Notes: generated by a model from the letters alone, not told the origin. Positions 30,910 through 60,337 are shown, counted from the first letter of the stretch. The stretch: 64,000 bases of DNA from Chloroflexota bacterium (GCA_013816405.1 JACDEL010000005.1:3210-67209); one strand, 5' to 3'. Numbers and translations: made by a program.

Positions 30910-31079
30910 CCCTTCCTCTCCGCGGGGGGCGCTTGTTCGAGCTAGCTCCCGACGCCAAACAACGTCAAGCCAACCCTCCGATTGAAGCGCCACATCGCAG
31001 TATCTATCGCGCTACTACACGTCTACTGTCGCAGTTGGTCGGAAAGTCCCATGGAGAATGCAGTCGGCCCTGGGTGACC

Positions 31080-31457: not shown

Positions 31458-31462
31458 CGCGC

Positions 31463-32786: not shown

Positions 32787-32791
32787 GCTAG
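31835..32791 (+). CDS. IS481-family DDE transposase
   Basis: An HTH (SVSRAARAAGISRQSGSKWWNRY), then the rve core with LLHLDTK, HVAIDDHSRIAY and PQTNGKAERF. The stop codon (32789-32791) lies in the target duplication just outside the right IR. Confidence 0.9.
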   Translation: MPHANACLTPRGRQILVSRIADGWSVSRAARAAGISRQSGSKWWNRYRREGRDGLVDRRSVVRRQARAHPPELTERLCRMRRELRVGPHRLAWQTGLSRSTVYALLRRHGLGRLDRLEPRPPIVRYERAAPGELLHLDTKALGRIRPGGGLPKPQRTAGYSAGRRRGIGWNRVHVAIDDHSRIAYVEELADEAPVTTAAFLERAVTFYAGQGITIQRVLSDNGGCYRSGLFAAAAERLGIGLRKTRPYRPQTNGKAERFIRTLLSEWAYARPFHDTAARVASLPAFVDFYNRSRPHWSLNGQPPMSRASVNNLSGKNS

Positions 32792-36525: not shown

Positions 36526-37713
36526 TCAGGAGCCAGGCCGAGTGGCGGGAACGCGAGCCGCCCTCGCGCGGCGCAAGGGTGCAACGCGAGCCCTAGCCGC
36601 TCCGGTGGACCGCTCTTCCGCCACAACAGCGAGGTGATGGCAGGTAGCAACTGCTCGCATCCAGTACTGACTGCGGCTGAGCCTGGCTCCGTCGGCGAGT
36701 TCCTCAATGAACCGGTCGCCCCAGCAGCACGCCGAACCGACGAACGGCGGGTGCATCCGAAGACGTTCCGCAAGGGCCCGGTAGTGGACAGGCACCTCAT
36801 CATGGTCGAGCTCGTCCATCGGCCGGCCACGGGAGACATACATGAATTCGCCAGCCGTGTACCGAATGCTCGGGCGCATTTTGGGGACGGCACCCGGGGG
36901 CGGGGGGACCGGATGCTGCGCGGCGTAATCGGCGAAGCGCAGGCGCACAGCGAGATGCGCTTGGACCTTGTCAAAAAGTGCAACTTCGCGCCTCGCGATA
37001 GCGTTGAGCGAGTCGTCGGCAATCTCCTCCGCAAGCGAGTCAGGCACAGACGTTCCCGCGAGGATTACAGTCCTCCAACGCGCTGCCGACACCGCCTGAA
37101 GGGCAAGCCTCACTACTGAGGAAGGTTCATCCATGCCGGGGGGTATATAGCCCAGGTCGAGCATTAGGTCCAGTCGCTCGGGATCCACACCCAGCGTGGC
37201 GACTTCAACCCGTAGATCGTCGGCCAGCTGACGCGAGCCGTAAGCCAGCGCGGCATCCGCACGAACCAGAAGCGCAGCTCCGAGATCGTCGGAGGCAAAC
37301 CTTCGAACTATGTCGGCCAAGTCCGGTCTGCCGAACGGATAGACGGGCAGAAATGCGAGGTTGGAGGCCACAGCAGCCTCATAGACGTCTTGCATGTATT
37401 CGCCACCCAATGGCGCGATGCGCCTGCGCCGCCGCGGTGTACCCACGGCATCCAAGTAGAGGGCTCGGTCGCCGGTCGCGGCTGCCAACCTTGCCAGCTC
37501 AGCAGCTGGCGCAACCCCTCCTTCGTCACCCCGCAGTTCCGGGGGCACGATCCTGAGCCATGGCGTTATCGCTTGCGCGGTTGCTGTCGCCGTTTGCTGC
37601 AGGGCGATCCTCTCGCCTCGCTTCACCAGCAGGATCGGAACGTACGCGTTCAGAGCGGTCGTGACTTCAGCGAACCGCCGCAGCATCCCTAGCTGCCTTG
37701 ACATAGGAGGCAT
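36526..37713 (-). CDS. 'Beta protein' family (PF14350-like) protein, function unknown
   Basis: NAYVPILLVKRGERIALQQ matches the family start (YxPILKxKxGExxAL). Later blocks are LDLMLDLGYIP, RFADYAAQHP, SIRYTAGEFMYVSRG and CCWGDRFI. The true start may be ATG 37704 or 37686, because the operator palindrome lies 10 nt upstream of 37713. Confidence 0.6.
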   Translation of the reverse strand: MPPMSRQLGMLRRFAEVTTALNAYVPILLVKRGERIALQQTATATAQAITPWLRIVPPELRGDEGGVAPAAELARLAAATGDRALYLDAVGTPRRRRRIAPLGGEYMQDVYEAAVASNLAFLPVYPFGRPDLADIVRRFASDDLGAALLVRADAALAYGSRQLADDLRVEVATLGVDPERLDLMLDLGYIPPGMDEPSSVVRLALQAVSAARWRTVILAGTSVPDSLAEEIADDSLNAIARREVALFDKVQAHLAVRLRFADYAAQHPVPPPPGAVPKMRPSIRYTAGEFMYVSRGRPMDELDHDEVPVHYRALAERLRMHPPFVGSACCWGDRFIEELADGARLSRSQYWMRAVATCHHLAVVAEERSTGAARARVAPLRRARAARVPATRPGS

Positions 37714-37722
37714 GAGGAGTAT

Positions 37723-37745
37723 ATGATAACCCCACGGGTTATCAT
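37723..37745. promoter_or_regulatory. Perfect 10-bp inverted repeat ATGATAACCC-cac-GGGTTATCAT, a putative operator in a divergent promoter region
   Basis: The arms are 37723-37732 and 36-45 of the same decade (37736-37745). It sits between the Beta-protein gene and the HigB-like/HigA-ImmA genes. The repeat itself is certain; the operator function is inference. Confidence 0.55.
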
Positions 37746-38098
37746 GTCAAGAGGTCGGACACATTGACGTTTCATGGGGAGACCGCAAGCTTGCTAAGGA
37801 CTGCACTACCGACCGATCAGGAGCGCGGCGGTTTGGTGCCAATCAATGGGCGGTACTCAAGCGGCGCCTGACCGTCTTGTACGCCGCTCCGACGTTGGCT
37901 GATGTCCGAGGCACACCTGGTCGTCTCCATCCGCTAGCCGCCAACCGCGCCGGCCAGTATGCCCTCGACCTCCGCGGGGCCACGCGCCTCATCATCGAAC
38001 CGAACCATGACCCGCTGCCCGAGCATCAAGACGGCCGCGTCGATGAGTCACGTGTGACCGCAATCCGAGTAATCGAGGTCATTGACTACCATGACTGA
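37744..38098 (+). pseudogene. HigB-like 'killer' toxin (RelE/ParE superfamily) lacking a canonical in-frame start
   Basis: The frame of ORF 37877..38098 is open back to 37730 and reads HIDVSWGDRKLAKDCTTDRSGARRFGANQWAVLKRRLTVLYAAPTLADVRGTPGRLHPLAANRAGQYALDLRGATRLIIEP...RVIEVIDYHD. This is the HigB/PF05015 pattern (F.D..L.K ... L..L..A ... L ... H.L.G.r.GqwS ... vDYH). The only nearby ATG (37744) is in the +2 frame and stops after 7 codons. That leaves either a 1-nt frameshift or a non-ATG start (ATT 37763, with GAGG at 37751-37754). Confidence 0.55.
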
Positions 38099-39179
38099 GA
38101 CGCTGAGATGGACCCCAGAGTGGCTCGTCGCTCCGGGCGAGGTCCTCGTGGAAGCGCTAGAGGAGCGCGGCATGTCTCAGGCCGAACTCGGTCGACGCAT
38201 GGCTCGCCCGCTGAAGACCATTAGCGAGATCGCTACGGGTAAGGCTGCCATCACCCCCGAAACCGCCATCCAACTCGAGCGCACACTGGGGATCACGGCC
38301 GCAATGTGGCTTGGGCTCGAGGCGCGCTACCGTGAAGCTCAAGCAAGAGAACGCGAAGCGGTCGAGCTCGAGGAGCATGTCACCTGGCTCAAGAGGTTCC
38401 CGATGCGGGAGCTCCTCTCGCGTGGCATCGTTCGACGTGACTCATCTACTCCCCAACAGGCGGCTGAACTCCTCAGCTTCTTCGGTGTGAGCAATCCCTC
38501 GGGATGGGCTCAACACTGGGGTCAGATCGCAGCCAGCTATCGCATGAGCCGCCGAACCAGGGTGTCTCGATTTGCGGTTGCACTCTGGCTGCGTACCGCC
38601 GAAAGAGAAGCTGAGAGCCAGCCGATTCCCGCATTCGACCGGAATCGCCTGCGGGCCATCGCTCCGGCGCTCCGGTCCCTGTCGCGAGCGCTCGTACTCG
38701 GGTCCGCCGTCGATGAGGCCAAGGAAGTTCTGAAGTCAGCGGGCGCGGGACTTCTGCTGATTGAGGGGGTAACCGACGCGCCAGCAAGTGGCGCCGTTCG
38801 GTGGGTCAGAGGCAACCCATGGATCATCCTCACCCTCAGGCACAAGACCGACGATCAGTTGTGGTTCAGCCTGCTTCACGAAATCGGGCACCTGTTGGAA
38901 GGCATTCGTCGCCAGGAGGTCGCCGAGGAGCTACCTGTTGGAAAGCTCGCCGATCCAGCAGAGAAGGCTGCCGACGACTATGCCCGAGAGATTCTTCTGC
39001 CCGAGGCTGAACTCAAGGTTTGGCTGCGCAACCACTCAATCGACAGGCAGACGATTCGAGACCTCGCGGCAAGCCAAGGAGTCGCTCCCGGGATCGTTGT
39101 CGGCCGGCTCCAGCGCGACGGACTAATTGAGCCGGCCCGGTTCAACGATTTAAAGCGGAGTCTGGATCCCCGTGGTTAG
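38091..39179 (+). CDS. HigA-type HTH antitoxin fused to an ImmA/IrrE zinc metallopeptidase domain
   Basis: APGEVLVEALEERGMSQAELGRRMARPLKTISEIATGKAAITPETAIQLERTLGITAAMWLGLEARY is a HigA-like HTH. The C-terminal LWFSLLHEIGHLL (HExxH) plus AADDYAREILLP is ImmA/IrrE. ATG 38091 lies just before the toxin stop (38096-38098). Confidence 0.8.
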   Translation: MTETLRWTPEWLVAPGEVLVEALEERGMSQAELGRRMARPLKTISEIATGKAAITPETAIQLERTLGITAAMWLGLEARYREAQAREREAVELEEHVTWLKRFPMRELLSRGIVRRDSSTPQQAAELLSFFGVSNPSGWAQHWGQIAASYRMSRRTRVSRFAVALWLRTAEREAESQPIPAFDRNRLRAIAPALRSLSRALVLGSAVDEAKEVLKSAGAGLLLIEGVTDAPASGAVRWVRGNPWIILTLRHKTDDQLWFSLLHEIGHLLEGIRRQEVAEELPVGKLADPAEKAADDYAREILLPEAELKVWLRNHSIDRQTIRDLAASQGVAPGIVVGRLQRDGLIEPARFNDLKRSLDPRG

Positions 39180-39328: not shown

Positions 39329-42274
39329 TCATGACGACTCGTCGGGCGGGTGCTTCGTCTCGTCGGTCTCCGCGGGCATCGAGTGCTTTCCGCGTCGGGC
39401 GTCCATCTCTTCGAGTGTTGGGAAGAGGGGCATCGCCATCCGGTGGCGAACCGTGATTGGTCGGGGGCGCGGGACGTCTAGTTCCGCGAATCCAGGCTTT
39501 GATTCGACGTCCCGACCAGGTTCACGTGGTTCGCGGACGGCCTTCCGGATCCTTCGGGCTGCGGCTCCCCGGCGGCTCTCTCGGTCGGCCGGGGCCGACA
39601 TTGGATCCTGACTCTCTTTCATCCGCCCGATCCTCATGGCGTCCTGCTCATCGACCTTACCCTGTTCTCGGAAAACGGATGCGCTGAGCGACCTCTCACG
39701 GCTGAAAGGACGTCCGAAGAGTGTGGTGCCGCGCGCGTAAACGACGATCCGATACACGCCAACTGCGGTGGCCGTGAAGTCCGCACTGAAGCGCCCACCC
39801 TCGACCTCCATGAACTTCACGGTCGTTTCTGTTCCGTTCGGCCACTCCACCTCCGACCAGACCGTTGCGCGGCCCTCCACCGGCGTGTCGTACTCGGACA
39901 GCGTGGCGCTGAGCCAGACATCCGAGCCGGGCTGGTGAGTCTTCTGGATCGCCTCGGCGAGGAAGTGCAGGTTCGAATTGGCGTGGATCTCGAGGCTGTA
40001 GGGCAGGGCCTGGCTTCCGAGTTCAGCGACAAGCGCTCGATCAGCATCCTTGGCCCGCTCGTTGAGGCGCAGCACGACATGCCATTCGCCCGCATGGCTC
40101 CCCTCTGGCGATCCCCCGAGCGCGGGGAGGGACAACCTGTAGAACGAGATGTGCGGGCGCTCCACGAACCTGACTGCGGGCTCGATTGTGCCTGTCGACG
40201 GGTCGACGATGACGCCGGCCGGAGTTTCGAGCGAGAACTCGATGTACTCCGGCGCCGGCGAGAGGAGCAGCACATCGACGCCGGCGTCGGCTTCGGTCAG
40301 CCAGAAGGGGATCCGGTGCTCGGCCCCGAAGACAAGCTGCCCGACCGGGTCGACGACGATCTGGGCATTGGTGAAGCCTGCCTGGATCTGCAAGAAGTAC
40401 TTGGACAGCAAGAAACGCTCGCTCTGCCCGATTGCTCCGGTGACCAGAAGGGACCCGCCGTTCTGGTGCGTCAGGCTGTCGAGCGCATCCTCGCTGACGT
40501 TGCCGGCCGTTCCAAATCCGATCGCGAACGTGTCTGCGCCAATCGAACCGGCGGAGTCGACGGTCGCAATCGACGGCGGCGTGTTCTCGTTGCCGTCGGT
40601 CAGCACGAGCATCCCCAGCGCTCCGTACGTGCCGGCCGGCGTAGCGTCGAGCGTGTCCCGACCCTCGGCGACACCGCCCCCGATCGATGTCGCGCCCCGA
40701 GGATCGAGTGTCTTGGCCGGATCGGAGGTGGCGAGGATATCGGCGACCCGGTCTCTTCCCGTGCCGGCGACCGGCGGAAGCGGCCCGACGTCGGTCACGT
40801 CGAGCAACCGGTTCACCTCATGATCGAACCGTACGATCCCGATCCCGTCACCTTCCTGCATGACCTCCAGGAACACTCCAACGGCCTCACGGAGCTTGTC
40901 CACCTTGGCCTGGCCGTCGCCGGAGTCGTCGGACATACTCCCGGACCGGTCGAGAACCAGAGCGACCGCGGACGGCTGGCGAGGCACGCTGTTGGCCGAT
41001 AGGTTCACACCCCAGGTCTCGGTCCAGACCGTCTCTCCGGCCGAATTGTGCGACGTGGCTCGGACGGTCAGGCTGCCAACGCTGATCGTCCCTGCGGCCG
41101 TCGAGTAGGAAATCCAGATCCGGCCCTTGGTAGGAGTCGGGTCATCACTGGTGGGAATGACGACAGACGTGCCGAGTGGGGTCCCCAGACCGGCCGATGG
41201 CCCGGCGATGATTTCCAGCGTGATTGCGTTGCACGGTCCGGGGACGACCTTCAGGACCACGGCCCGATAGGTCGTGACCGGCGTTCCGCCGATCCCCTCC
41301 TGGATATCCGTGAAGGCAACGCTGCTGGTCTTGGAGATGACCTCGGGCGGATCGTCGTCATACCAGTAGCCACCCGGTGTGATCGCGTGATGATTGATGA
41401 GCGATGCCGAGGTACGAGCTCCAGCCCACGGCGCGGTGGGGAACATCGCGTCGTTGAAGATCAGGTTGTCGCCGGCGTTGTGTCCCAATGGGGCGCCGGA
41501 TGGCGGTAGGTACGCGTCAGCCGTCGGATGCTGGCGCTGCCACACGGCCCACAGACGATCGATGTTGCAGTGATGGAGCCAGAACACGGGATCGTTCGGT
41601 GAACTGGCAAGATACATCGTTCGAGCGAGCCACCTGTGGACCAGGTTGTGAAGCTGGTACTCGACCTGGATGCGAAGGCTGTCGCCGCCACCGCCCGATG
41701 CCATGTCGTCCCACGGGGCCGCGTCATACGCCGTCTGAGCAAGAGCGGTGACCTGGTCGCCAGGGATGCTGTTCAAGTTCTGAGCGTCGGCCCGCTCGCC
41801 GAACCGACGGCCCAGGAACGATGGATTACCGGGCGAGTCCTTGATCCTGATCGTCCAATTGCCGGCATCGAAGGCAAAGGCCCCGTCCATAACCCGCCCG
41901 TCGCTGGCGCGGCCGTTCGTGCCGAGGCCTGACAAAGGGTCCGCATCGAAGATCGGCGCTCCGGTGCCCCGGTAGAGGTTCCAGTCCCAGTAGGGGATCG
42001 AGACGGTCGAGTCGATCGTCTGAAGATTCGCCTCGAAATGACGCATCAGGTCCCGATGCCATGAGAAGAAGGCAGGAGCCATGTGGGCCCACGAGGGCAT
42101 GACACTCATCGCCCGGAGATGGAGTGCGACGTAGTCGTCGTAGCGATGCATGTTGGAATCGCCGGGGAAGAGGACACTCGGCCATGCTGCGTCGTTCTTG
42201 AGCTTCAACAACGCGGCGATGAAGTTCTTCTTCTCCGCCGTCGTCAACCGCGCCCAGCTCTTGCGGCAGGTCAT
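39329..42274 (-). CDS. Tyrosinase (type-3 copper) - von Willebrand A - Ig-like multidomain protein
   Basis: CuA is MHRYDDYVALH...PAFFSWHRDLMRHFE...IPYWDW. CuB is QLHNLVHRWL...NDPVFWLHHCNIDRLWAVWQ. The vWA MIDAS is ALVLDRSGSMSDD ... TSIGGG ... MLVLTDGNEN. These are followed by ~300 aa of beta-rich sequence and a charged tail. There is no signal or Tat leader. Confidence 0.85.
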   Translation of the reverse strand: MTCRKSWARLTTAEKKNFIAALLKLKNDAAWPSVLFPGDSNMHRYDDYVALHLRAMSVMPSWAHMAPAFFSWHRDLMRHFEANLQTIDSTVSIPYWDWNLYRGTGAPIFDADPLSGLGTNGRASDGRVMDGAFAFDAGNWTIRIKDSPGNPSFLGRRFGERADAQNLNSIPGDQVTALAQTAYDAAPWDDMASGGGGDSLRIQVEYQLHNLVHRWLARTMYLASSPNDPVFWLHHCNIDRLWAVWQRQHPTADAYLPPSGAPLGHNAGDNLIFNDAMFPTAPWAGARTSASLINHHAITPGGYWYDDDPPEVISKTSSVAFTDIQEGIGGTPVTTYRAVVLKVVPGPCNAITLEIIAGPSAGLGTPLGTSVVIPTSDDPTPTKGRIWISYSTAAGTISVGSLTVRATSHNSAGETVWTETWGVNLSANSVPRQPSAVALVLDRSGSMSDDSGDGQAKVDKLREAVGVFLEVMQEGDGIGIVRFDHEVNRLLDVTDVGPLPPVAGTGRDRVADILATSDPAKTLDPRGATSIGGGVAEGRDTLDATPAGTYGALGMLVLTDGNENTPPSIATVDSAGSIGADTFAIGFGTAGNVSEDALDSLTHQNGGSLLVTGAIGQSERFLLSKYFLQIQAGFTNAQIVVDPVGQLVFGAEHRIPFWLTEADAGVDVLLLSPAPEYIEFSLETPAGVIVDPSTGTIEPAVRFVERPHISFYRLSLPALGGSPEGSHAGEWHVVLRLNERAKDADRALVAELGSQALPYSLEIHANSNLHFLAEAIQKTHQPGSDVWLSATLSEYDTPVEGRATVWSEVEWPNGTETTVKFMEVEGGRFSADFTATAVGVYRIVVYARGTTLFGRPFSRERSLSASVFREQGKVDEQDAMRIGRMKESQDPMSAPADRESRRGAAARRIRKAVREPREPGRDVESKPGFAELDVPRPRPITVRHRMAMPLFPTLEEMDARRGKHSMPAETDETKHPPDESS

Positions 42275-42480
42275 CGTGCGCCCTGTATCGCGGAGGGATC
42301 AGTGAGGCCACGATACCCCAGCCATCGAGTATTATCAATACTCTGCGGGGCCAGCGCGACACTCGATTTGCGAGGCTCCTCACTCGCTGCCCAACCAGGA
42401 AGAGTGCAGACCCTGCGGCCAGTTCGACGGGACTCTCGGGCGCAGAGCCCGGGGGTGCCTTGCAACAAAGGAGAGTAAGT

Positions 42481-42768
42481 GTGGCGGATTCGATTGAGGT
42501 GCGGTGTATCAACAAGACCGACCGCACGGATCCGCATGAGCGGATTAGCCACATCGGCGGGACCAACCCGAACGGAGCCGCCTGGAGGCTCACGGAGGCA
42601 GATGCGATTGCCGGCATCGAAAGTGACAAGTGGGCCTTCTCTGTAGATCGGCCAAAGGGCGACCGTGTTGCGGTGATTGTCGCCAGCCGGCTCGGGCGCA
42701 AGTACCTCAAGACCACAGCCGACGGGGATCAGCCCAACAACCTGCTCTTTCTGCCCGAATGCCCCTAG
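42481..42768 (+). CDS. DUF3892-domain small protein
   Basis: GTG 42481 has AAGGAG at 42468-42473. IEVRCINKTDRTDPHERISHIGGTNPNGAAWRLTEADAIAGIESDKWAFSV...YLKTTADGDQPNNLLFLPEC fits DUF3892. Confidence 0.65.
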   Translation: MADSIEVRCINKTDRTDPHERISHIGGTNPNGAAWRLTEADAIAGIESDKWAFSVDRPKGDRVAVIVASRLGRKYLKTTADGDQPNNLLFLPECP

Positions 42769-43622
42769 CTTTGAGGCGGCCTATTTGGAGTCGCGACGCC
42801 GGAATATCCGGTCGCTACACATACGCGCGGACCGAAGACTGTCGTGGGTCCGCATCCCACCAGAGTTCCGAAAGCACGCATTCACCGTGCACATCAGCCA
42901 ATTCGAAGGCGATCGGGAGGTGGGGCGGGTGACCTGGCGGCTGGTGCCCACCCGCTGGTTAAAGGAGCGTGCCCGGGGGGACGGGCGACTGCGCATTCGC
43001 GTAGCACGCTGATAGCGGTATCGCTCCTGGCCGATCATGATTTTCCTGCCCGATTTCGAGGCTCGCCGAATGAGGAACCTCGAGCAGGTGCGTGCCGCCC
43101 GTGCTGCGGCGCCACAGACAATCAGATCGATCCGGCTCGGGCGCAGCCGGCGATTCGGCGCATTGAGAGCACACGCTGAGCACGAGGGTCGCCTTCACCT
43201 CAAAAGTGCCGAAAGCCCCCCTCTGCATTCGCGCGCACCCAGTAAGCCACGCCGCCTCGACCGGCTACGCCGTCCTTCGGTCCATCCATCGCAATGCAAG
43301 CCATAGACTGACGGTCAGTTGGTTAGTGCCGTCATTGCCTATCCGTACCCCTTCCCTATCACGATCAGTACCACGGCCGGCGGAGCTTTCGTCGTCACGC
43401 CGGCGCAGCGTCGTCGTCGAGAGCTCATCTCGCAGTTCGCCCCGCACCACTTTGGCTTGGCCACTTGGCTTCCAAGTGCGAACCGAAGCCGGGTTAGGCC
43501 TCTACGTCACCTCGATGCCGACGGCGCCCGCTCCGGTCATCCCCGGCTTGTTGGAGACGTGGTGGTCCCACGGATTCATGCGCGACCCACACAGCCAGCG
43601 GCGAGATGACAACCTAACCAGG

Positions 43623-44942
43623 CTATCCGCGAGACTTAAGCGCCATTGCCTCCCGATACAGCACAACCGCCTCGGCAGGCTTCCCGAGCCTGTCGAGCAG
43701 CTCGGCCCATTCTGAGAGCAATGGCCGCAGGCGCCCTGCAAACCTGAGATCGCGGTACCCCTGAGCGGCAAGGCGAAACTCATCTAGGGCGTGGTCTGGA
43801 CGTCCCTCGGCCGCAAGCACCCGCGCCCGAGTGTAGTGAATGGCCGCCGATGCCTCCGGGTTTCGCCCGCCGTCGGCATCGGCGGCTGCCTCAGCCAACT
43901 TCTGAAGAGCTGCTTCGTGGTTCCCTTCGGCGAGTGCGATCTGGGCCTCAGTGTCGAGTACGTGCGGCAGAAACGTCGCTTCGGGCATGACATCGGCATG
44001 CTCGCGGGCTTGGGCGGCGAATGCATGTGCTCGTTCCAGGTGACCTAAGTGAAGCATCGCGAGGGAGAGGGTGTTCTCCATTGACGCGATCTCCTGCCTC
44101 GCGTGAAGGACCTGGAATAGCACGAGCGCCTGGCTCCCAGCCTGTAGTGAGGCCTCGTCGTCACCTACGTCCCCATAGCTTCGCGATAGATTCATCAACA
44201 GGGTAGCTCGCCGCCCGTCGTCCAAGTCGGAGACACGGCCACGCGCCTCTTCGAGATAGGCCAGGGCGCGCTGGGGCTCTCCTTCCCAATTCTCGACATT
44301 GGCCAAGGCGACGAGCAGGCGGAAGCGGAAGTCGGGCAAGACCTCCATGCCCTCACGGACGCGCTCGAGCAGCGTCTTCAGGATGGTTCGCGCTTCGCCT
44401 GAGTTGTCGGCCAGATAGTGGGCGTAGGCCAGCCAGTACCCGGCGTACGCGGCGTCCGCGGCTCGTTGCAGCCGCTCGAATCGTGCAGCCGACTCTGCCG
44501 CAGGGGCCACCGCCTCGGCGCCCCGCCGTAGCCGACAGAGGCTCTCGGCTATCCCACGCAGAATCTCGGCCCGAGCTCGGTCAGGTACCGCCGAATCGAG
44601 CAGGCTTTGATATTCACCAAGCGCTCCGGCGTAATCGCCTGAGGCCAGGCGCAAGTCTGCCCCCAGCCGATCCGCTCTGCCGGGCTCGGCGGGGAGAAAC
44701 GCCCCGATCGGAACACCGAGGCGCTCCCCGAAGTAGTGCAGCGCGGCCATGGACGGCTTGGTCAGTGCGTTTTCCAGCGCGCTGACGTATGCCGGGGTGT
44801 AGCGCGGTTGCGCCAACTCCCGCTGAGTGAGCTTGGCCGCCGTTCGCAGCCGCCTCACGTTCTCCCCGATGGCCTTCGCCAAGGGGCGGTTGTCGACAAC
44901 GTTCAAGACCCGCGGCTTGCGACGGGTTGCTGTTGGTTCCAT
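43623..44942 (-). CDS. XRE-family HTH + TPR-repeat transcriptional regulator
   Basis: The N-terminal HTH is LAKAIGENVRRLRTAAKLTQRELAQPRYTPAYVSALENA. About 330 aa of Ala/Leu-rich TPR-like repeats follow. Confidence 0.8.
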   Translation of the reverse strand: MEPTATRRKPRVLNVVDNRPLAKAIGENVRRLRTAAKLTQRELAQPRYTPAYVSALENALTKPSMAALHYFGERLGVPIGAFLPAEPGRADRLGADLRLASGDYAGALGEYQSLLDSAVPDRARAEILRGIAESLCRLRRGAEAVAPAAESAARFERLQRAADAAYAGYWLAYAHYLADNSGEARTILKTLLERVREGMEVLPDFRFRLLVALANVENWEGEPQRALAYLEEARGRVSDLDDGRRATLLMNLSRSYGDVGDDEASLQAGSQALVLFQVLHARQEIASMENTLSLAMLHLGHLERAHAFAAQAREHADVMPEATFLPHVLDTEAQIALAEGNHEAALQKLAEAAADADGGRNPEASAAIHYTRARVLAAEGRPDHALDEFRLAAQGYRDLRFAGRLRPLLSEWAELLDRLGKPAEAVVLYREAMALKSRG

Positions 44943-45721: not shown

Positions 45722-47242
45722 TTACGGTTCTGAAGATCGCTTTCGAGCCCTCGTCGGTATGGGCGGGACACTGACCTCTTGAAATGCCTTTCCGGCGCGC
45801 AGGTCGGCGTGCAGCTCGACATACGGCACGCGATCTGCGAGTAGGTTCGTTGAGCGCAGTGTCATGCTCGTGTCGAGGGCGGCAACCAGGGTCTCCCTCG
45901 GCACAGCCGTTGCCGGCGACTTGCCGTGAACACCAGGCTTCGTCGAGAGGAGAGCCCACCTCGGGTCCGACTTCGACCGCGGCTTCCAGAGATTAAACAA
46001 CGTGCGTGGGGTGGCGTTGCGACTTCCGTGGTGGCCGACCTTGTACACGTCCACCTCACGTAGCAGCGCTCGGTTTCGCGTTCGCTTGAGGGCGTATTCC
46101 CAGTTCTCGATCTGGGCATCGCCGCCGAACAGCAGCCGGATCCTCTTGCCACTCGCATCCACGTCGAAGAGGAGGATGACGCTCGTGTTGTTGAGCACCC
46201 CATCCAGGATCCGAACGATTCGATAGAGCGAGTTGAGCTGCTGCCGGCCCATGCGGTCTGTCAGCCAGCGCACAGGCCCAACTGGACCGAAGGCTCCGGC
46301 TGAATCAGGGGCATCGGTTTCCGCCGGATCCGGCGCCACCCCGGAGACATCATCGTGTGCACCTGCATGCGCCGCCGACTCGGTGGACGCGGGCAAACCC
46401 CGTTTGCCATGCGCAGGCCCGATGAGATCCGTGCGGGTAAGGTTGCCCAGCAGTTGGTTGTAGATCATCCAGAACTCGTCCGGATCGCTTTCTCGCTGGC
46501 TCTTGACCGCTTCGTGTTGGTCCACGGTCGGCGGCCCAAGAACTCGAGTGCGGATGCCCGGGACGACGGATTCGATCCCCGACCGCATCCCGTAATGCAA
46601 ATAGGCGGGCTTGCCCGCGTCGCCCCAGGCCTTGAGCTGGTTGACGGCGTCCTCGTTCTTGAGTTGGTCCTCGGCGAGGCCCGAGGCCTCGGCTGCGAGT
46701 GAATTGGGTGGCGACTTCCTGATCTTTTCGAAAAGCCCTGTGGTGAAGGTCTCAGCCGATCCGAGTGTCCTCATGAACCTTCGGGACTTGGGTCCGATGG
46801 CAACCTCCGTATCCCGAGCGTTTCCCCTGGTGGCCGATGGCGCAATGCCTGTTCCTGCTGCCGCGGGACCGCGCGCGCCTCGATCGAGGTCAGGATCCTC
46901 GGTCCACGATCGGATGACGAGCTTTGGGTATCCCGGGTCGACCAGCAGCTTGGCGATCTGCTTGTCGCCAAATGCTGAGAGATGGTCGCGGTGGCGATGG
47001 GTCACAACGATGACGTCGATCTTGCCCTGCGCATGGTCGCGAATGAGTTTTGCGATCTGGTTGAGGGACGAGAGCCTGCCGCCCATGCTGGTGCTCCCGA
47101 AATCAATCAGGACGTGGCGCTCCTTACGGCCGTCGTCAAGGGCCTGCCCATACTCGAAGCTGAGAAGGAAGCAGTCCCCGAATCCCACCTGGTACATGCG
47201 TATGCGGAGTCCAATCGGTTTGGCGCTGGCCATCGCTACCAC
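45722..47242 (-). CDS. Metallo-beta-lactamase-fold hydrolase, ComEC/Rec2-like subtype
   Basis: IRMYQVGFGDCFLLSFEY...HVLIDFGS, VIVVTHRHRDHL (HxHxDH) and VYKVGHHGSRNA. There is a long low-complexity insertion. The start overlaps the upstream stop by 7 nt. Confidence 0.8.
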   Translation of the reverse strand: MVAMASAKPIGLRIRMYQVGFGDCFLLSFEYGQALDDGRKERHVLIDFGSTSMGGRLSSLNQIAKLIRDHAQGKIDVIVVTHRHRDHLSAFGDKQIAKLLVDPGYPKLVIRSWTEDPDLDRGARGPAAAGTGIAPSATRGNARDTEVAIGPKSRRFMRTLGSAETFTTGLFEKIRKSPPNSLAAEASGLAEDQLKNEDAVNQLKAWGDAGKPAYLHYGMRSGIESVVPGIRTRVLGPPTVDQHEAVKSQRESDPDEFWMIYNQLLGNLTRTDLIGPAHGKRGLPASTESAAHAGAHDDVSGVAPDPAETDAPDSAGAFGPVGPVRWLTDRMGRQQLNSLYRIVRILDGVLNNTSVILLFDVDASGKRIRLLFGGDAQIENWEYALKRTRNRALLREVDVYKVGHHGSRNATPRTLFNLWKPRSKSDPRWALLSTKPGVHGKSPATAVPRETLVAALDTSMTLRSTNLLADRVPYVELHADLRAGKAFQEVSVPPIPTRARKRSSEP

Positions 47243-48990
47243 TCCTCCGCAAGGTTGGGTGACTGGTGGTGGAATTCAGCAAAGCGTTGGCCGAGCGGCA
47301 CGCCGAGCGAAAAGCCAAGCCGCCCCTTCGTATCCCACAGCCCTCGGTCGACGAGGTACTGGAGCCGTCGCTGCTGCCGCGACCAGTCATCCAGCCGCTT
47401 GAACCGCTGGTATTTCACTGCGCCGAACTCATCGAAGATGATCGTCCCGCCGCCCCACAGCTTGAGCTTCGTCTTGTCGGGGATGATTTCGGTCGATGGG
47501 AGGGTGAACGGCGGATCTCCGGGCTTGGTTGGCTGAGCAAGCTTGTCGAGATCAGCCCGACTGAGGATCAGCTCTTGGACGTAATCCACGACGGTCTCCG
47601 AGACGACGAACCCTCGCGGGCCGGTCCGCACCGCAGGCCGAACGTTCTCGACGTGCAGGTAGTAGGCCGGGTCGATCCCCAGAAATCGCGCATGGTCCCA
47701 AATGAACCGGAAGGTCTCATCCGGATCGGACCGAAGTGAGGCGTAGCTGAAGTCTCGGTAGGTAGGCCACCCGGTGGGCGGTGCGACCCAGTCGGGGGCA
47801 CCCTGAACCTCGATCCCGAATGACCTGAAACCCTCTTTCAGCGCCTCCACGTAGCCGTACTCGTCGTCGGGGTTCACCTCGTGCTCGGAGGCCACGATCG
47901 CCGTCAGAAAATCGGCAAGCTCGAATTCCACGGGCGGGCAGTAGTCGATCGCCCGGATCACCATGTTCAGCAGATGTTTCGCGGCCGTGGCGCCCTCTTC
48001 TGACGCTCGCCCGCGATCGATCGTGCCGGCGCCGACAATCGGAATAAGGCGATTGGTCCACATGTGGAGATACGTCCGGATGACCGCCGCGACAAGGATC
48101 TCCCCGCGGCGGTGGGGCTCCGCCCATTCAGGATTGCGCAGGTCCTTCCAGGCGGTCGTGGGCTCCTGATCGATCGAGCGCCGCAGGCCGTCGCCGCGAT
48201 TGAGGTGCAGCGCATTGCCGAACTGCCTGCCGATGGTGAACAGGACCGACGAGCGAAGTCCGTCGAACGTCAGCCGGTCGGCGCGCACCCGAGCCTGACC
48301 GGGATCGCCGAGCACGGCCTGGATCGATTCCCGCGCCGACAGGATGGAGAGCAGCGCAACGAGGTCCGCGAATCCCTCGTGGAACCCGGCCTGGTCAGGG
48401 AGGCCAGGCGTGTCGAATCGGCGCCTCAGGCCGTCGAGGATGGCGTGCGTCGTCTCGTGGGCGACGATGTCGTGAGCCAGGCAGGTCATGATGCGACCGG
48501 ATGCCTGGCTGTTGAAATACCCGAATAGCAGGGCGCGATCATCGTCCGAGTAGTACGCATTGGCCTCGGCAAAGGCCCTCGGGACCAGGTATAGCTGCGA
48601 GCTTCCGAACGCCCACGGCACTGGGCGGCCCAGGGCCGTCTCAAAGAATCCGAGTGTCCTCGCCGCGATCGCGTACACGTTCTGGGCATGAAAGGCTGGA
48701 TCGCGAAGGAGCGTCCTGTCGTCGGCCTTCGCGAATCGGTCCCGATAGTCCCAGCCGGCCGAGTCGCCGCGCATCGGCGCCAGCCTGGCCGGGCGATCAA
48801 GCGTGCGACGGCTCGCGTCGAAGCCAACGACGTGGAAGCGCGGGCCACGTGGACCAGGCTCAAGGCGGCTGGCCGGTACCTGGATGACCGCCCGCAGGAT
48901 GGGCTGATCGCCATTCGTCGACGCCTGGTTAGTCACCAGCGGATCGCGCGCGATGATCGTCATTGGGAAGTAGCGCAGCCGTTCCTGCAT
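47236..48990 (-). CDS. Thermolysin-like (gluzincin, HExxH+E) zinc metallopeptidase with a large C-terminal domain
   Basis: ORF 47236..49347. ATG 48988-48990 (MQERLRYFPMTIIARDP) shares nt 48990 with the upstream TGA (TGATG). The active site is CLAHDIVAHETTHAILDG ... QAGFHEGFADLVAL. There is no signal peptide. Confidence 0.8.
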   Translation of the reverse strand: MQERLRYFPMTIIARDPLVTNQASTNGDQPILRAVIQVPASRLEPGPRGPRFHVVGFDASRRTLDRPARLAPMRGDSAGWDYRDRFAKADDRTLLRDPAFHAQNVYAIAARTLGFFETALGRPVPWAFGSSQLYLVPRAFAEANAYYSDDDRALLFGYFNSQASGRIMTCLAHDIVAHETTHAILDGLRRRFDTPGLPDQAGFHEGFADLVALLSILSARESIQAVLGDPGQARVRADRLTFDGLRSSVLFTIGRQFGNALHLNRGDGLRRSIDQEPTTAWKDLRNPEWAEPHRRGEILVAAVIRTYLHMWTNRLIPIVGAGTIDRGRASEEGATAAKHLLNMVIRAIDYCPPVEFELADFLTAIVASEHEVNPDDEYGYVEALKEGFRSFGIEVQGAPDWVAPPTGWPTYRDFSYASLRSDPDETFRFIWDHARFLGIDPAYYLHVENVRPAVRTGPRGFVVSETVVDYVQELILSRADLDKLAQPTKPGDPPFTLPSTEIIPDKTKLKLWGGGTIIFDEFGAVKYQRFKRLDDWSRQQRRLQYLVDRGLWDTKGRLGFSLGVPLGQRFAEFHHQSPNLAEEW

Positions 48991-50429
48991 CAAGTCACCT
49001 CGGGGCGTAGGGCACTGCGCGGATCTGGCAGTGGAGCAGCGAGCGTCGGCTTGAGCCAGGCGGAGGCGGCCAGTCCCATGGCCTCCCTGAGCCTGATGGT
49101 CACCGAGTCCCGCTGCTCGTCGCCCTGGAAATGGTAGTAAAGGGCGTGTGCGTAGGCCGGGATCCGGGCCTTCCAGCCGTTGGCCAGCAACGGCCGATCC
49201 AGGATTCCGTTGCCGAACAATGGGCCGAGCGGTCCACCGAACCAGTCGCCGAAGAAGCCGAAGTGGGCGGGGAACCACATGTTCGTCCAGCGCACCACCG
49301 CGAACGGTGCAGCGTGGTACAGCACGCGACGACCACGGTTGTTCCACGAGAACCAGAGCTTCTGTCCGTTCACGTTGTTTTTCTCCGACAACTCGTGCTG
49401 CGGTGGGCAGGTGGGTAGCTCCCGCAGCAACACTCGGTTGTCGAACTTCTTCCGATTCCGGGTATAGATCCGATCTGCCATGTACATCGGGCTACCGAAG
49501 CTGAGGAAGTCGGTGATCAGCCACGGATTGCCTTGTGCGCGCATTCCCAGCCATAGCCTCCGTTGGGTGTCCTGGTAGGCGGTCACATCCGATCCACGCG
49601 TCAAAGCCGATGCCGCCGCCTCAAGGTCCGCAAGGCCGCTGGGCTGGTCGCCCTGCTCCGGCTTGTCGACGTCCGGTCGGACAGGACCGGCATGCTGTTT
49701 GTCCATCTGGCCCCAGAGGTAGCTAATCGCGTCGTATGCGATGTACGAGCCAAGACTGTGGGCGATGATGACAATCCGCTGGTAGCGCCCGTCGGCATGT
49801 AGTCCCTGCAAGAGGTCGATGATTCCGGCCCGAATGTCGCGCCGCACCTCATATGAGCGCGGGGACGTGTCAAGGTAACGGATCACGTCGACGAAGCTCG
49901 AGGTCAGCCACGACGGCAGCCAGCGCGTCAGGACGTACGTGAGCAGAATCGCGCTCAGTCCACCTCCGACCACCGCTTTGAGGATGTCCACCAGGGTGAT
50001 CTGGCCCAAATCCAAGGCAAGGTCCGGTCGAAGCGACAGGAACAGAAGGACGCTCGCGATCAACAGCGCCCAGAAGATAGCCCACAGGACACGGAGGCCT
50101 GCGGGTACGTACCACGGGGGCGCAAGCAGCATCCGGCGGAAGGCGGGCCAGAGGTCGTCTAGCCGGTTGTCCTGCATGAGGTGGGCCCAGTGGTATTCAA
50201 AAAACTCAGTCTGTGCCCGAATCTCGCCCGCATCGTTGTGAGCAGCAGGGGCGAGGTACCGACGCGACTCATACGAATCCACAACCTGGTCTGGTCGCGA
50301 ATAGAAGAGGCGCTTGCCGCCTCGGTCGGCCCCGAGAGCGGCACCGATGAATTCGTTGAGGGTCTCCAGCGGGCGCTGCTCGCCCATGCCGTGGACGATA
50401 ACGACGGCTTGCCGGAGATGCCGTTCCAT
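48990..50429 (-). CDS. Alpha/beta-hydrolase (lipase/esterase-like) with two inserted TM helices
   Basis: AVVIVHGMGEQRP (oxyanion-hole region). The TM segments are VLWAIFWALLIASVLLFLSL and AVVGGGLSAILLTYVLTRWL. The nucleophile elbow is RIVIIAHSLGSYIAYD. Confidence 0.75.
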   Translation of the reverse strand: MERHLRQAVVIVHGMGEQRPLETLNEFIGAALGADRGGKRLFYSRPDQVVDSYESRRYLAPAAHNDAGEIRAQTEFFEYHWAHLMQDNRLDDLWPAFRRMLLAPPWYVPAGLRVLWAIFWALLIASVLLFLSLRPDLALDLGQITLVDILKAVVGGGLSAILLTYVLTRWLPSWLTSSFVDVIRYLDTSPRSYEVRRDIRAGIIDLLQGLHADGRYQRIVIIAHSLGSYIAYDAISYLWGQMDKQHAGPVRPDVDKPEQGDQPSGLADLEAAASALTRGSDVTAYQDTQRRLWLGMRAQGNPWLITDFLSFGSPMYMADRIYTRNRKKFDNRVLLRELPTCPPQHELSEKNNVNGQKLWFSWNNRGRRVLYHAAPFAVVRWTNMWFPAHFGFFGDWFGGPLGPLFGNGILDRPLLANGWKARIPAYAHALYYHFQGDEQRDSVTIRLREAMGLAASAWLKPTLAAPLPDPRSALRPEVT

Positions 50430-60326: not shown

Positions 60327-60337
60327 GGATCCGTCAC

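What the first reader, a model, noticed from the sequence alone, without database searches (positions are those of the whole stretch)
39329..42768. Cytoplasmic tyrosinase fused to a vWA domain and Ig-like modules, with a divergent DUF3892 gene
One 981-aa ORF joins three parts:
- a complete type-3 copper tyrosinase domain (all CuA and CuB His motifs present)
- a von Willebrand A domain with an intact MIDAS (DRSGSMS ... TSIGGG ... TDGNEN)
- ~300 aa of beta-rich sequence plus a charged tail

There is no Sec or Tat leader and no MelC1-like caddie gene nearby, unlike classical secreted bacterial tyrosinases. vWA domains commonly act as sensor or scaffold parts of bacterial conflict systems. Coupling one to a phenol-oxidising, cross-linking enzyme would be an unusual effector logic, for example oxidation of Tyr residues on an invader protein or quinone production. 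The gene sits between a TA module and an XRE-TPR regulator. It shares a ~200-bp divergent promoter region with a DUF3892 gene.
Basis: partly seen in the sequence, partly recalled or inferred. Interest (0 to 1): 0.7.

Follow-up and report, generated by a model that had tools for sequence, protein, structure and literature searches.

The report
Leaderless tyrosinase on a vWA scaffold
This gene encodes an intact copper tyrosinase fused to a metal-dependent protein-binding (vWA) scaffold that other microbes attach to different oxidases and proteases; the family is widespread and unstudied, but nothing ties it to the neighbouring DUF3892 gene or, in general, to phage defence.

Summary
It has no leader and no caddie gene. 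A DUF3892 gene lies divergently across 206 bp.

It is not a one-off fusion. More than 120 full-length homologues occur across many bacterial phyla and haloarchaea. The 'body' (aa 306-872) alone has 382 representative relatives at E<=1e-30. In these the head is a tyrosinase (two types), LodA-like oxidase, lysyl oxidase, S8, M14 or M64 peptidase, LamG or CpXC.

None of 227 members has a signal peptide; a few look tail-anchored. No neighbour is conserved. DUF3892, XRE-TPR and the PD-lambda-2-like module appear only in this window, which is a defence island.

Basal family members keep a leaderless MelC1-like caddie gene and have short tails. The window's clade lacks the caddie and has a long tail with a Met/His-rich stretch before a conserved Phe (RHRMAMPLF), possibly an in-cis caddie substitute.

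Best reading: a latent cytoplasmic tyrosinase targeted by its vWA/Ig body. A defence role is possible but unsupported beyond location.

The parts
39329..42274 (-). Whole gene: 981-aa tyrosinase - Ig-like - vWA - beta - beta - tail protein
   Evidence: ORF; Pfam; more than 120 full-length homologues; AF2 model pLDDT 85
41360..42274 (-). Head, aa 1-305: MelC2-type type-3 copper tyrosinase. CuA ligands H52/H64/H73; CuB ligands H209/H213/H235; E205 and N210 conserved; the core ends at Y303-W304-Y305
   Evidence: PF00264 E 4e-35; phmmer to 1wx2_A E 8e-48 over residues 1-263; Foldseek TM 0.85-0.90 (normalised to target) and 34-36% identity to Streptomyces/Bacillus tyrosinases; conservation
40979..41359 (-). 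aa 306-432: Ig-like beta-sandwich between the head and vWA (first domain of the shared 'body')
   Evidence: AF2 strands 311-430, pLDDT about 85-90; no Pfam match; conserved in all head variants
40367..40978 (-). aa 433-636: vWA domain with complete MIDAS (D442, S444, S446, T529, D560)
   Evidence: PF13519/PF00092; invariant residues; best single-domain fold match is the CLCA1 vWA domain, 23-24% identity, TM 0.81-0.83; lowest entropy of all domains
40019..40366 (-). aa 637-752: beta-sandwich 1 after the vWA domain
   Evidence: AF2; no Pfam match
39671..40018 (-). aa 753-868: beta-sandwich 2, filamin/FN3-like Ig domain
   Evidence: AF2; weak Filamin PF00630 hit, E 0.002; weak Filamin-B hit, E 0.13
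39329..39670 (-). aa 869-981 plus stop: disordered charged tail. It lacks the four-Cys motif (CxLLxC...CxxxC) that nearly all relatives carry
   Evidence: pLDDT below 60; tail comparison
39479..39493 (-). aa 928-932, GFAEL: first conserved short motif of the tail
   Evidence: Recurs as [GA][FI]A[ET][LI] in long-tail relatives; local pLDDT bump and a beta-bridge at residue 931
39404..39445 (-). aa 944-957, HRMAMPLFPTLEEM: Met/His-rich stretch followed by the conserved F951. Candidate in-cis caddie-like motif
   Evidence: F conserved in 50 of 54 sequences; His+Met 17.7% in the 12 preceding residues against 4.8% protein-wide; present only in members without an upstream caddie gene
42310..42338 (-). 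Promoter-like site TTGATA-17-TATCGT, 36 bp upstream of the ATG
   Evidence: Consensus scan: 1 site found against 0.6 expected, so weak evidence
42481..42768 (+). Divergent DUF3892 gene (95 aa from GTG 42481). An adjacent gene, not a conserved partner
   Evidence: PF13031 E 2e-16; Shine-Dalgarno sequence and GTG start; absent from all other loci

Best explanation
The gene encodes a cytoplasmic, probably latent, MelC2-type tyrosinase. The enzyme sits on a conserved protein-binding scaffold: an Ig-like domain, a vWA domain with MIDAS, and two beta-sandwiches.

Shown:
- The catalytic core and the MIDAS are intact and conserved.
- The protein and its whole family lack secretion leaders.
- The same scaffold carries interchangeable heads in other genomes: tyrosinase, LodA-like oxidase, lysyl oxidase, S8/M14/M64 peptidases and LamG.
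- The gene is stand-alone, with no conserved neighbour.

Inferred:
- The vWA MIDAS, helped by the Ig-like domains, captures an acidic peptide of a conserved cellular partner. This tethers the head to that partner, possibly near the membrane, since some relatives look tail-anchored or have polybasic tails. The tyrosinase would then oxidise tyrosine or phenol groups locally, causing cross-linking, quinone formation or melanisation, rather than acting on the free pool.
- In the window's clade the ancestral MelC1-like caddie gene has been replaced by a long C-terminal tail. Its Met/His-rich stretch and conserved Phe (H944-R-M-A-M-P-L-F951) would hand copper to the active site and plug it, as His82/Met84/His97 and Tyr98 of the caddie do. 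This would keep the enzyme inactive until the tail is displaced.

The defence-island position in this window is taken as incidental. DUF3892 is a separate island gene.
For: - Intact enzyme.
- Leaderless family-wide, with five members ending in a hydrophobic helix at or near the C-terminus.
- Widespread full-length family across phyla and haloarchaea.
- Body alone has 382 relatives at E<=1e-30 with eight or more head types, verified by Pfam.
- S8 heads retain their prodomains, which fits latent enzymes.
- No conserved neighbour.
- vWA is the most conserved domain and no folded domain is hypervariable, which fits a conserved ligand.
- Leaderless MelC1-like genes directly upstream in basal members: the profile also hits the ORF upstream of classical Streptomyces melC2 genes, and Pfam MelC1 gives sub-threshold matches.
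- Caddie gene and long Met/His-Phe tail are mutually exclusive: median tail 69 vs 151 aa, p = 1e-4.
- Caddie copper path and the Y98 plug: PMC12177623.
- C-terminal extensions keep other tyrosinases latent: PMC10526336.
- Some relatives instead have PpoB2 + DUF1326 downstream; PpoB2 is the Marinomonas tyrosinase copper chaperone (PMC2855505).
Against: - No ligand of the vWA domain is known, and no localisation data exist.
- The tail is modelled with low confidence and no docking could be inspected, because model coordinates and PAE were not available.
- The caddie-versus-tail complementarity reflects essentially one evolutionary transition: the long-tail members form one clade. The p-values therefore overstate the evidence.
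- The tail motif is not detectably homologous to MelC1.
- The tail motif was not found in stand-alone caddie-less tyrosinases, several of which manage without either feature.
- The motif profile detects only 8 of 21 long tails.
- The window protein has lost the four-Cys motif kept by nearly all relatives, and the significance of this is unknown.
- The gene does sit in a defence island here.
Confidence: 0.45

Rival explanations
1. It is a single-polypeptide conflict (anti-phage or programmed-death) effector. The vWA/Ig body senses an invader-derived or infection-exposed peptide through the MIDAS. This releases the latent head, which damages proteins by tyrosine oxidation, quinone formation or cross-linking. 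Relatives with protease or H2O2-producing heads would do the same by other chemistry.
For: - Repeated head displacement on a preserved architecture is one stated hallmark of conflict proteins (PMC7159879).
- All heads are potentially toxic if unleashed in the cytoplasm, and the proteins are leaderless.
- In this window the gene lies in a defence island: type I R-M, a PD-lambda-2-like module, an MBL-fold operon, an AbiEii-like ATPase, a DUF3892 gene and an IS481 transposase.
- The phyletic distribution is sporadic and includes megaplasmids.
Against: - No defence context in seven Pfam-annotated homologue loci, two curated plasmid contexts or 136 neighbours of 27 loci.
- No PADLOC match.
- No NTPase/MoxR or other partner.
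- No hypervariable surface, and vWA is the most conserved part.
- Absent from phages.
- Relatives sit beside copper oxidases or copper chaperones instead.
Confidence: 0.15
2. It is an extracellular or surface matrix-modifying enzyme that leaves the cell by a non-classical route or by lysis, as has been discussed for LodA. The vWA and Ig-like domains bind a surface or matrix, and the tyrosinase cross-links or melanises it.
For: - vWA plus Ig-like modules, and heads such as lysyl oxidase, LodA, S8, M14 and M64 peptidases and tyrosinase, are typical of extracellular biology.
- Fold matches include pilus adhesins, ITIH1, CLCA1 and LapA.
- LodA is described as an antimicrobial H2O2-producing enzyme involved in biofilms and competition (PMC4417212, abstract).
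- The four-Cys motif could form disulfides.
Against: - 0 of 227 members have a Sec or Tat signal.
- The associated caddie-like genes also lack the Tat leader of MelC1 (sequences).
- Some members look tail-anchored, which would place the bulk of the protein in the cytoplasm.
- There are no secretion-system neighbours.
- Cytosolic vWA proteins such as ArnB are equally good fold matches.
Confidence: 0.2
3. The vWA body is a cofactor-maturation module rather than a targeting module. It would act like the vWA partners of MoxR ATPases (NorD, CoxE) that help insert metals, here serving copper insertion into the tyrosinase.
For: - vWA/MoxR pairs insert metal cofactors in other enzymes (PMC9976466 abstract; PMC7159879).
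- Several heads (tyrosinase, lysyl oxidase) are copper enzymes.
- DUF1326/PpoB2 copper-handling genes follow or are fused to some relatives.
Against: - No MoxR ATPase is near any locus examined.
- The same body carries S8, M14, M64 and LamG heads that need no copper.
- Caddie genes or tail motifs already account for copper loading.
Confidence: 0.05
4. It is a meaningless or decaying fusion, such as an assembly artefact or a pseudogene.
For: - The contig is from a metagenome assembly.
- The window copy has lost the four-Cys motif.
Against: - The same architecture occurs in more than 120 full-length proteins from isolates and MAGs of many phyla, at 35-70% identity along the whole length.
- All catalytic and MIDAS residues are invariant.
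- The multi-domain AF2 model is confident.
Confidence: 0.01

Closest known systems
Streptomyces MelC2 tyrosinase with MelC1 caddie (PDB 1wx2 and related)
   Same: - The catalytic core has 34% identity and TM 0.89 normalised to the target, aligned from residue 1.
- The six His ligands and the Glu/Asn pair are conserved.
- Basal members of the family keep a MelC1-like gene directly upstream.
   Different: - The window has no caddie gene and no Tat-dependent export.
- The enzyme is fused to about 680 further residues.
- NCBIfam MelC2 equivalog score is 198, against a cutoff of 450.
- The family's caddie-like genes have no signal peptide.
Caddie-independent Bacillus/Priestia megaterium tyrosinase (PDB 3nm8, 8hpi)
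   Same: 35-36% identity and TM 0.85-0.86; works without a caddie gene.
   Different: It is a ~290-aa single-domain enzyme with no vWA/Ig body and no Met/His-Phe tail.
Pro-tyrosinases with a C-terminal inactivating extension (Verrucomicrobium spinosum vsTyr; fungal and plant PPOs)
   Same: A C-terminal part is proposed to keep the active site closed until needed (PMC10526336). The window protein has a YxY end to the core followed by extra domains and a conserved aromatic residue in the tail.
   Different: vsTyr has a Tat leader and a single lid domain removed by proteolysis. Here the extension is a vWA/Ig scaffold plus a disordered tail, and shielding was not demonstrable with these tools.
LodA-like quinoprotein oxidases fused to vWA (noted in Amycolatopsis and Cryptosporangium by Campillo-Brocal et al. 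2015, PMC4417212)
   Same: The same body at 36-39% identity over about 560 aa, including the four-Cys motif. That paper also noted tyrosinase and multicopper-oxidase genes in lodA operons.
   Different: The head is a CTQ-dependent amino-acid oxidase, not a copper tyrosinase. The paper treated the vWA domain as an unexplained addition and did not recognise the shared multi-head chassis.
MoxR-vWA 'ternary' conflict systems (Kaur, Burroughs, Iyer and Aravind 2020, PMC7159879)
   Same: A MIDAS-bearing vWA domain is joined to highly variable enzymatic domains, and peptide capture by the MIDAS is the proposed logic.
   Different: Those systems are defined by a MoxR AAA+ ATPase and a third component in an operon, with effectors C-terminal to the vWA domain. 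Here there is no MoxR and no operon, and the heads are N-terminal.
CLCA proteins (metalloprotease - vWA - beta-rich - FnIII)
   Same: The module order is the same. CLCA1 is the best single-domain vWA match (23-24% identity, TM 0.81-0.83; NCBIfam hCaCC E 4e-5). M64-peptidase-headed relatives mimic the architecture.
   Different: CLCA proteins are eukaryotic and secreted with a different protease head. Apart from the weak vWA match above, no sequence relationship was detected.
Marinomonas mediterranea PpoB1 tyrosinase with PpoB2 membrane copper chaperone
   Same: Some family members are followed by DUF1326 + PpoB2 (L086, L088), and one has DUF1326 fused on (L004/P0058). The PpoB2 role is taken from PMC2855505.
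   Different: The window has neither gene. PpoB1 itself has no vWA body, which is my recollection and was not tested here.

Membership tests
Type-3 copper tyrosinase (Pfam PF00264) | Score above the Pfam gathering threshold | tested here: met
   122.5 bits against a cutoff of 22.6, covering profile positions 2-214 of 214
Type-3 copper tyrosinase (Pfam PF00264) | Six copper-ligand histidines (3 CuA, 3 CuB) in register | tested here: met
   H52, H64, H73, H209, H213 and H235 are conserved in 54 homologues and aligned to the hemocyanin/tyrosinase ligand motifs
Type-3 copper tyrosinase (Pfam PF00264) | Tyrosinase fold | tested here: met
   Foldseek E 3e-19, TM 0.85-0.90 normalised to target, rmsd 2.0-2.5 A to 5z0f/1wx2/3nm8
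Type-3 copper tyrosinase (Pfam PF00264) | Copper-dependent monophenolase/diphenolase activity | not testable with these tools
   Only inferred, from the conserved E205 and N210 next to CuB
MelC2 equivalog (NCBIfam NF047834) / classical melC operon | Score above the equivalog cutoff | tested here: not met
   198 bits against a cutoff of 450
MelC2 equivalog (NCBIfam NF047834) / classical melC operon | MelC1 caddie gene with a Tat leader directly upstream | tested here: not met
   No caddie-like ORF in any frame of the window. Basal relatives have a leaderless MelC1-like gene
vWA domain with MIDAS | DxSxS ... T ... D metal-ion-dependent adhesion site | tested here: met
   D442-R-S444-G-S446, T529 and D560 are all invariant; PF13519 32.8 bits against a cutoff of 27
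MoxR-vWA ternary conflict systems (PMC7159879) | Adjacent MoxR-type AAA+ ATPase and a third core component | tested here: not met
   None in the window or in homologue loci
MoxR-vWA ternary conflict systems (PMC7159879) | Repeated displacement of effector domains on a preserved architecture | tested here: met
   Eight or more head types on one body
MoxR-vWA ternary conflict systems (PMC7159879) | Hypervariable segments (high alignment entropy) at the interaction surface | tested here: not met
   Folded domains show 1.4-1.9 bits with vWA lowest; only the disordered tail is variable
Known anti-phage defence systems (PADLOC-DB v2) | Match to a defence-system protein model | tested here: not met
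   No PADLOC family for the tyrosinase-vWA protein or for DUF3892
Known anti-phage defence systems (PADLOC-DB v2) | Recurrent location in defence islands | tested here: not met
   True only for this window. Not seen in 27 or more other loci. No formal enrichment statistic was computed
Latent pro-tyrosinases with a C-terminal shielding domain | A C-terminal element that occupies or covers the active site with a placeholder residue | tested here: inconclusive
   F951 is conserved behind a Met/His-rich stretch, but the tail has pLDDT below 60 and no coordinates or PAE were available
DUF3892 (PF13031), neighbour gene | Score above the Pfam threshold | tested here: met
   60.4 bits against a cutoff of 22.3
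DUF3892 as a functional partner of the tyrosinase-vWA gene | Conserved co-occurrence | tested here: not met
   tblastn and phmmer --max against six-frame ORFs of 91 loci find only the window's own copy

The most novel reading that the evidence does not exclude
The Ig-vWA-beta-beta body defines a previously unrecognised family of leaderless, single-polypeptide, MIDAS-gated latent enzymes. Its interchangeable heads (tyrosinase, LodA, lysyl oxidase, S8/M14/M64 peptidases) are protein-damaging effectors. They would be released when the vWA domain captures a specific peptide. This would be a new type of stand-alone immune or programmed-death effector, and the window copy would be one deployed in a defence island.
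Probability: 0.15. Interest if true: 0.8.

Novelty: new variant of a known kind. Interest (0 to 1): 0.55.

Why it matters
Bacterial tyrosinases are usually described as small enzymes, secreted or cytoplasmic, that work with or without a caddie protein. This gene belongs to a large, phylogenetically scattered group in which a MelC2-type enzyme is permanently attached to a metal-dependent protein-binding scaffold. That group has not been described in the literature I could search.

The same scaffold is re-used for other oxidases and for proteases. That points to an unknown cellular target to which protein- or amino-acid-modifying chemistry is delivered.

The analysis also gives a concrete, testable idea about tyrosinase maturation: a disordered Met/His-Phe tail may have taken over the job of the caddie protein.

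If the scaffold turns out to be a sensor, the family would be a new class of single-protein conflict effectors. If not, it is still a new handle on intracellular melanisation or cross-linking, and a natural example of targeted tyrosinases of interest to protein engineering.

Tried and rejected
1. DUF3892, XRE-TPR, PD-lambda-2 B/C, MBL or M4-like proteins as conserved partners. tblastn against 80-91 loci and sensitive phmmer on six-frame ORFs found none. Rejected.
2. Any conserved neighbour, sought by de novo clustering of flanking ORFs. None beyond a small upstream ORF. That ORF later proved to be a MelC1-like caddie in a subset.
3. Tandem paralogues with different heads in one locus. None.
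4. PADLOC and NCBIfam naming of the protein. No defence model; only sub-threshold MelC2/BagH hits.
5. Pfam on the isolated Ig-like, beta and tail segments. Only a weak Filamin hit.
6. Sequence search of the body against PDB. Nothing significant.
7. Foldseek of the full model and the body model against PDB and BFVD. Only generic vWA/Ig matches, giving no functional clue.
8. The four-Cys motif as a copper-handling feature. Rejected, because LodA- and M64-headed relatives keep it too.
9. A profile of the tail motif. Too insensitive: it detects 8 of 21 long tails.
10. The tail motif in stand-alone caddie-less tyrosinases. Not found.
11. Homology between the tail and MelC1. Not detectable.
12. Phage-borne copies. 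None.
13. Literature on tyrosinase-vWA fusions or tyrosinase in defence. Nothing beyond the 2015 LodA-vWA remark.
14. Inspecting whether the tail or the Ig-like domain covers the active site in the AF2 model. Not possible, because coordinates and PAE are not exposed.

Full report

Yes. The window holds a 981-aa ORF at 39329..42274 on the minus strand. It starts at the first possible start codon after an upstream stop, so there is no room for a hidden leader.

- Pfam places a complete Tyrosinase domain at aa 43-248 (E 4e-35) and VWA_2/VWA at aa 437-605.
- In an alignment of 54 diverse full-length homologues, the six copper ligands (H52, H64, H73; H209, H213, H235), E205/N210 next to CuB, and the MIDAS residues D442, S444, S446, T529 and D560 are invariant or at least 90% conserved.
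- The histidines align with the ligand motifs of hemocyanins and tyrosinases. The N-terminus aligns from residue 1 to residue 1 of Streptomyces tyrosinase 1wx2 (E 8e-48).
- An AF2 model built on that alignment is confident (pLDDT 85.2). Its domains are: tyrosinase 1-305, beta-sandwich 306-432, vWA 433-636, two beta-sandwiches 637-868, and a disordered tail 869-981.
- The head superimposes on Streptomyces and Bacillus tyrosinases (TM 0.85-0.90 normalised to the target, 34-36% identity).
- The divergent 95/102-aa gene is a bona fide DUF3892 (E 2e-16). Its likely start is GTG 42481 behind an AAGGAG, leaving a 206-bp spacer. That spacer contains one weak sigma-70-like site for the tyrosinase gene.

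**2. The protein is not a one-off fusion**

- A word-indexed search returned at least 120 proteins of about 1000 aa with the same architecture at 35-70% identity. The sources name them only 'tyrosinase family protein' or 'hypothetical'.
- A scan of one genome per species found 565 relatives. About 25 are full-length, in Acidobacteriota, Actinomycetota, alpha-, beta-, gamma- and delta-proteobacteria, Bacteroidota, Paenibacillus, Cyanobacteria, Chloroflexota, Verrucomicrobiota and Haloarcula.
- Full copies also sit on Microvirga and Haloarcula megaplasmids. None was found in phages.

**3. The key finding: a shared body with swappable heads**

Four loci matched only aa ~308-869 of the query. Their N-termini are LodA-like quinoprotein oxidases (L015, L018, L030) or an M64 peptidase (L079). 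A second, divergent tyrosinase type heads L021, L024 and L025.

An exhaustive phmmer search with the body alone (aa 306-872) found 1448 representative proteins at E<=1e-3, and 382 at E<=1e-30. Among the best 150, the heads are:

| Head | Count |
|---|---|
| MelC2-type tyrosinase | 34 |
| LodA | 28 |
| S8 subtilase with prodomain | 17 |
| M64 peptidase | 11 |
| Type-2 tyrosinase | 10 |
| M14 carboxypeptidase | 7 |
| Lysyl oxidase | 4 |
| LamG | 3 |
| CpXC | 1 |

There were also a few unknown heads, and 31 hits with heads under 40 aa, many of them probably partial ORFs.

In a distance tree of the body, the LodA and M64 versions nest among the tyrosinase versions, so heads were exchanged within the family. 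Campillo-Brocal et al. 2015 had noted two LodA-vWA fusions as a curiosity (PMC4417212). I found no description of the multi-head family.

**4. Where does it act?**

- None of 227 full-length family members has a Sec-like hydrophobic N-terminus or a Tat motif.
- Five end in a single hydrophobic helix at or near the C-terminus, as tail-anchored proteins do.
- Many others have polybasic C-termini.

This points to a cytoplasmic, possibly membrane-proximal location.

A body-only AF2 model (pLDDT 87.8, pTM 0.86) matches generic vWA-containing proteins. These include the Catenulispora vWA protein 4fx5, pilus adhesins, ITIH1, the cytosolic archaeal ArnB, and the CLCA1 vWA domain (23-24% identity, TM 0.81-0.83). 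That gives no functional assignment. At sequence level the body has no relative in the PDB.

**5. Genomic context**

The window region 22-59 kb is a defence island. It holds:

- a type I R-M system (hsdR/S/M);
- a DUF4209 protein;
- an IS481 transposase;
- an MBL-fold three-gene operon;
- an AbiEii-like ATPase.

None of the window's neighbours recurs beside any homologue. That includes the 69%-identical P0002, whose neighbour is an unrelated secreted beta-propeller-like protein.

De novo clustering of flanking ORFs found no conserved partner. A Pfam survey of the 136 nearest neighbours in 27 loci gave 115 families. None recurs more than three times, and most are housekeeping (TonB receptor, DNA pol III alpha, AcrB, methylmalonyl-CoA mutase and others).

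Individual contexts sometimes contain other copper enzymes or copper chaperones:

- a multicopper-oxidase/glyoxal-oxidase fusion (L083/L084, L021);
- DUF1326 + PpoB2 directly downstream (L086, L088), or DUF1326 fused on (P0058/L004). PpoB2 is the copper-transfer protein of the Marinomonas tyrosinase (PMC2855505).

DUF3892 has been predicted to be defence-linked and to occur with HTH + metallopeptidase regulators. It is better seen as another island gene than as a partner of the tyrosinase.

**6. The caddie question**

In Microvirga and Haloarcula a small gene abuts the start of the big gene. A profile built from five such ORFs hits the ORF directly upstream of the tyrosinase gene in L005-7, L019, L020, L022, L044, L089 and L090 (E 1e-15 to 1e-34).

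It also hits the ORF upstream of classical Streptomyces melC2 genes (E 1e-5 to 1e-8), which is where MelC1 lies. Pfam MelC1 matches two of the small ORFs below threshold (E 4.5e-5 and 5e-3). These caddie-like proteins have no signal peptide.

The seven non-redundant caddie-bearing members have short tails (median 69 aa after the body) that end soon after a four-Cys motif. The twenty caddie-less tyrosinase-headed members, including the window, have long tails (median 151 aa). Their tails carry a GFAEL-like motif, then a Met/His-rich stretch ending in a conserved Phe.

- The Phe is F951 in the window, within 'RHRMAMPLFPTLEEM', and is conserved in 50 of 54 sequences.
- His+Met make up 17.7% of the 12 preceding residues, against 4.8% protein-wide.
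- Mann-Whitney p = 1e-4 for tail length and p = 0.002 for His/Met before Phe.

In the Streptomyces complex, copper passes through caddie residues His82, Met84 and His97 into the active site; residue Y98 is cited there only as the Y98F mutant structure, and its role as the active-site plug is my recollection (PMC12177623). I therefore propose that the tail is an in-cis functional substitute for the caddie and a latency plug.

Caveats:

- The long-tail members form one clade, so this is essentially one evolutionary transition and the p-values overstate independence.
- The tail shows no detectable homology to MelC1.
- The motif profile is weak.
- Stand-alone caddie-less tyrosinases without any such tail exist.
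- The tail is modelled at low confidence.
- The four-Cys motif belongs to the body, not to copper handling, because LodA- and M64-headed relatives keep it. The window protein and P0002 have lost it.

**7. Mechanism**

Shown:

- an intact tyrosinase and an intact MIDAS;
- a leaderless, stand-alone gene;
- a modular family.

Inferred (about 0.45):

- The vWA/Ig body tethers the head to a conserved cellular partner through MIDAS-mediated capture of an acidic peptide.
- The tyrosinase acts locally on tyrosine or phenol groups.
- The tail loads copper and keeps the enzyme latent.

The even, moderate entropy of all folded domains, with vWA the most conserved, fits a conserved ligand better than a fast-evolving invader.

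Rivals:

- A single-protein conflict effector (0.15). It has one hallmark, repeated effector displacement, and this window's location. It lacks conserved defence context, partners, PADLOC hits and hypervariability.
- A non-classically released matrix or surface enzyme (0.2).
- A copper-maturation module (0.05).
- An artefact (refuted).

**8. Comparison, novelty and verdict**

The head is a member of the type-3 copper tyrosinase family. It is not a MelC2 equivalog (198 bits against a cutoff of 450) and not part of a classical melC operon.

The protein is not a member of the MoxR-vWA ternary conflict systems: there is no MoxR and no third component, and the heads are N-terminal. It resembles CLCA proteins in module order only.

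I rate it a new variant of a known kind. The tyrosinase is known, but it sits on a chassis that has not been described in the literature I could search, and it may have a built-in caddie substitute.

Interest is 0.55. The proposed defence logic and the DUF3892 link are not supported by comparative evidence.

Noticed in passing
window 36526-39179: The 'TA module' is a PD-lambda-2-like three-gene set. It has a HigB-like frame (37757-38098, +), a HigA-HTH + M78 peptidase (38082-39179, +; PD-Lambda-2_B E 2.5e-32) and a Beta protein (36526-37713, -; PD-Lambda-2_C E 2e-29). Unlike a simple operon, component C is on the opposite strand.
   Followed up: partly
window 37757-38098 (+): The HigB-like reading frame stays open for at least 40 codons upstream of the first canonical start (TTG 37877), and the upstream part looks HigB-like by eye. 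This suggests either a non-canonical start or a decayed one. The Pfam HigB-like match is only E 0.038.
   Followed up: partly
window 22088-28967 (-): A complete type I restriction-modification operon: hsdM 26493-28967, hsdS 25216-26496, hsdR 22088-25219.
   Followed up: no
window 29086-32791: A DUF4209 protein (29086-30993, -) and an IS481-family transposase (31835-32791, +) sit between the R-M system and the PD-lambda-2-like module. These are signs of a mobile or defence island.
   Followed up: no
window 45722-50429 (-): A three-gene operon with overlapping stops. It encodes a 479-aa protein with no Pfam match, a 584/703-aa protein with a weak thermolysin-like hit, and a 503/506-aa MBL-fold protein that hits LmuA, Avs1a, 6A-MBL and PDC-M48B models. 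It could be an uncharacterised defence system.
   Followed up: partly
window 57090-59066 (+): A 658-aa AAA_21/AAA_15 (AbiEii/OLD-like) ATPase, another defence-type gene.
   Followed up: no
window 60001-64000: G+C jumps from about 62-65% to 70-71% in the last 4 kb. This may be the edge of the island or the start of core genome.
   Followed up: no
window 43623-44942 (-) and 42781-43038 (-): An XRE-HTH + TPR regulator (439 aa) and an 85-aa ORF with no Pfam match lie upstream of DUF3892. Neither is conserved next to homologues of the tyrosinase gene.
   Followed up: partly
L083 6682-9828, L084 1600-4746, L021 5948-8977 (weaker in L024, L019): A 1048-aa leaderless fusion of a multicopper oxidase and a glyoxal/galactose-oxidase-like domain sits next to tyrosinase-vWA genes in several unrelated taxa.
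   Followed up: partly
L086 10024-11411, L088 9910-11333, L004 about 13110-13750: DUF1326 + PpoB2 (a copper-chaperone family) lie directly downstream of two tyrosinase-vWA genes. In one Acidobacteriota protein (P0058), DUF1326 is fused to the C-terminus.
   Followed up: partly
L007 13491-13988 (+): A second caddie-like ORF (profile E 1e-20) lies downstream of the tyrosinase-vWA gene, with an N-terminal part weakly resembling CBM_26.
   Followed up: no
P0142, P0151, P0226, P0254, P0260 (body-family proteins): These members end in a single strongly hydrophobic helix at or near the C-terminus (tail-anchor-like). Many other members end in polybasic stretches.
   Followed up: partly
L045-L048, L064, L076; L033-L037, L058: Stand-alone MelC2-type tyrosinases in Kitasatospora, Streptomyces and Nitrosospira carry other C-terminal modules. 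By eye these look like a ~125-aa lectin-like domain and a ~220-aa PPC-like domain. Attaching binding modules to this tyrosinase type may therefore be a general theme. The domains were not verified.
   Followed up: no
window 39329-39670 compared with relatives: The window protein and its closest relative P0002 have lost the four-Cys motif (CxLLxC...CxxxC) that follows the body in nearly all other members, whatever their head.
   Followed up: partly
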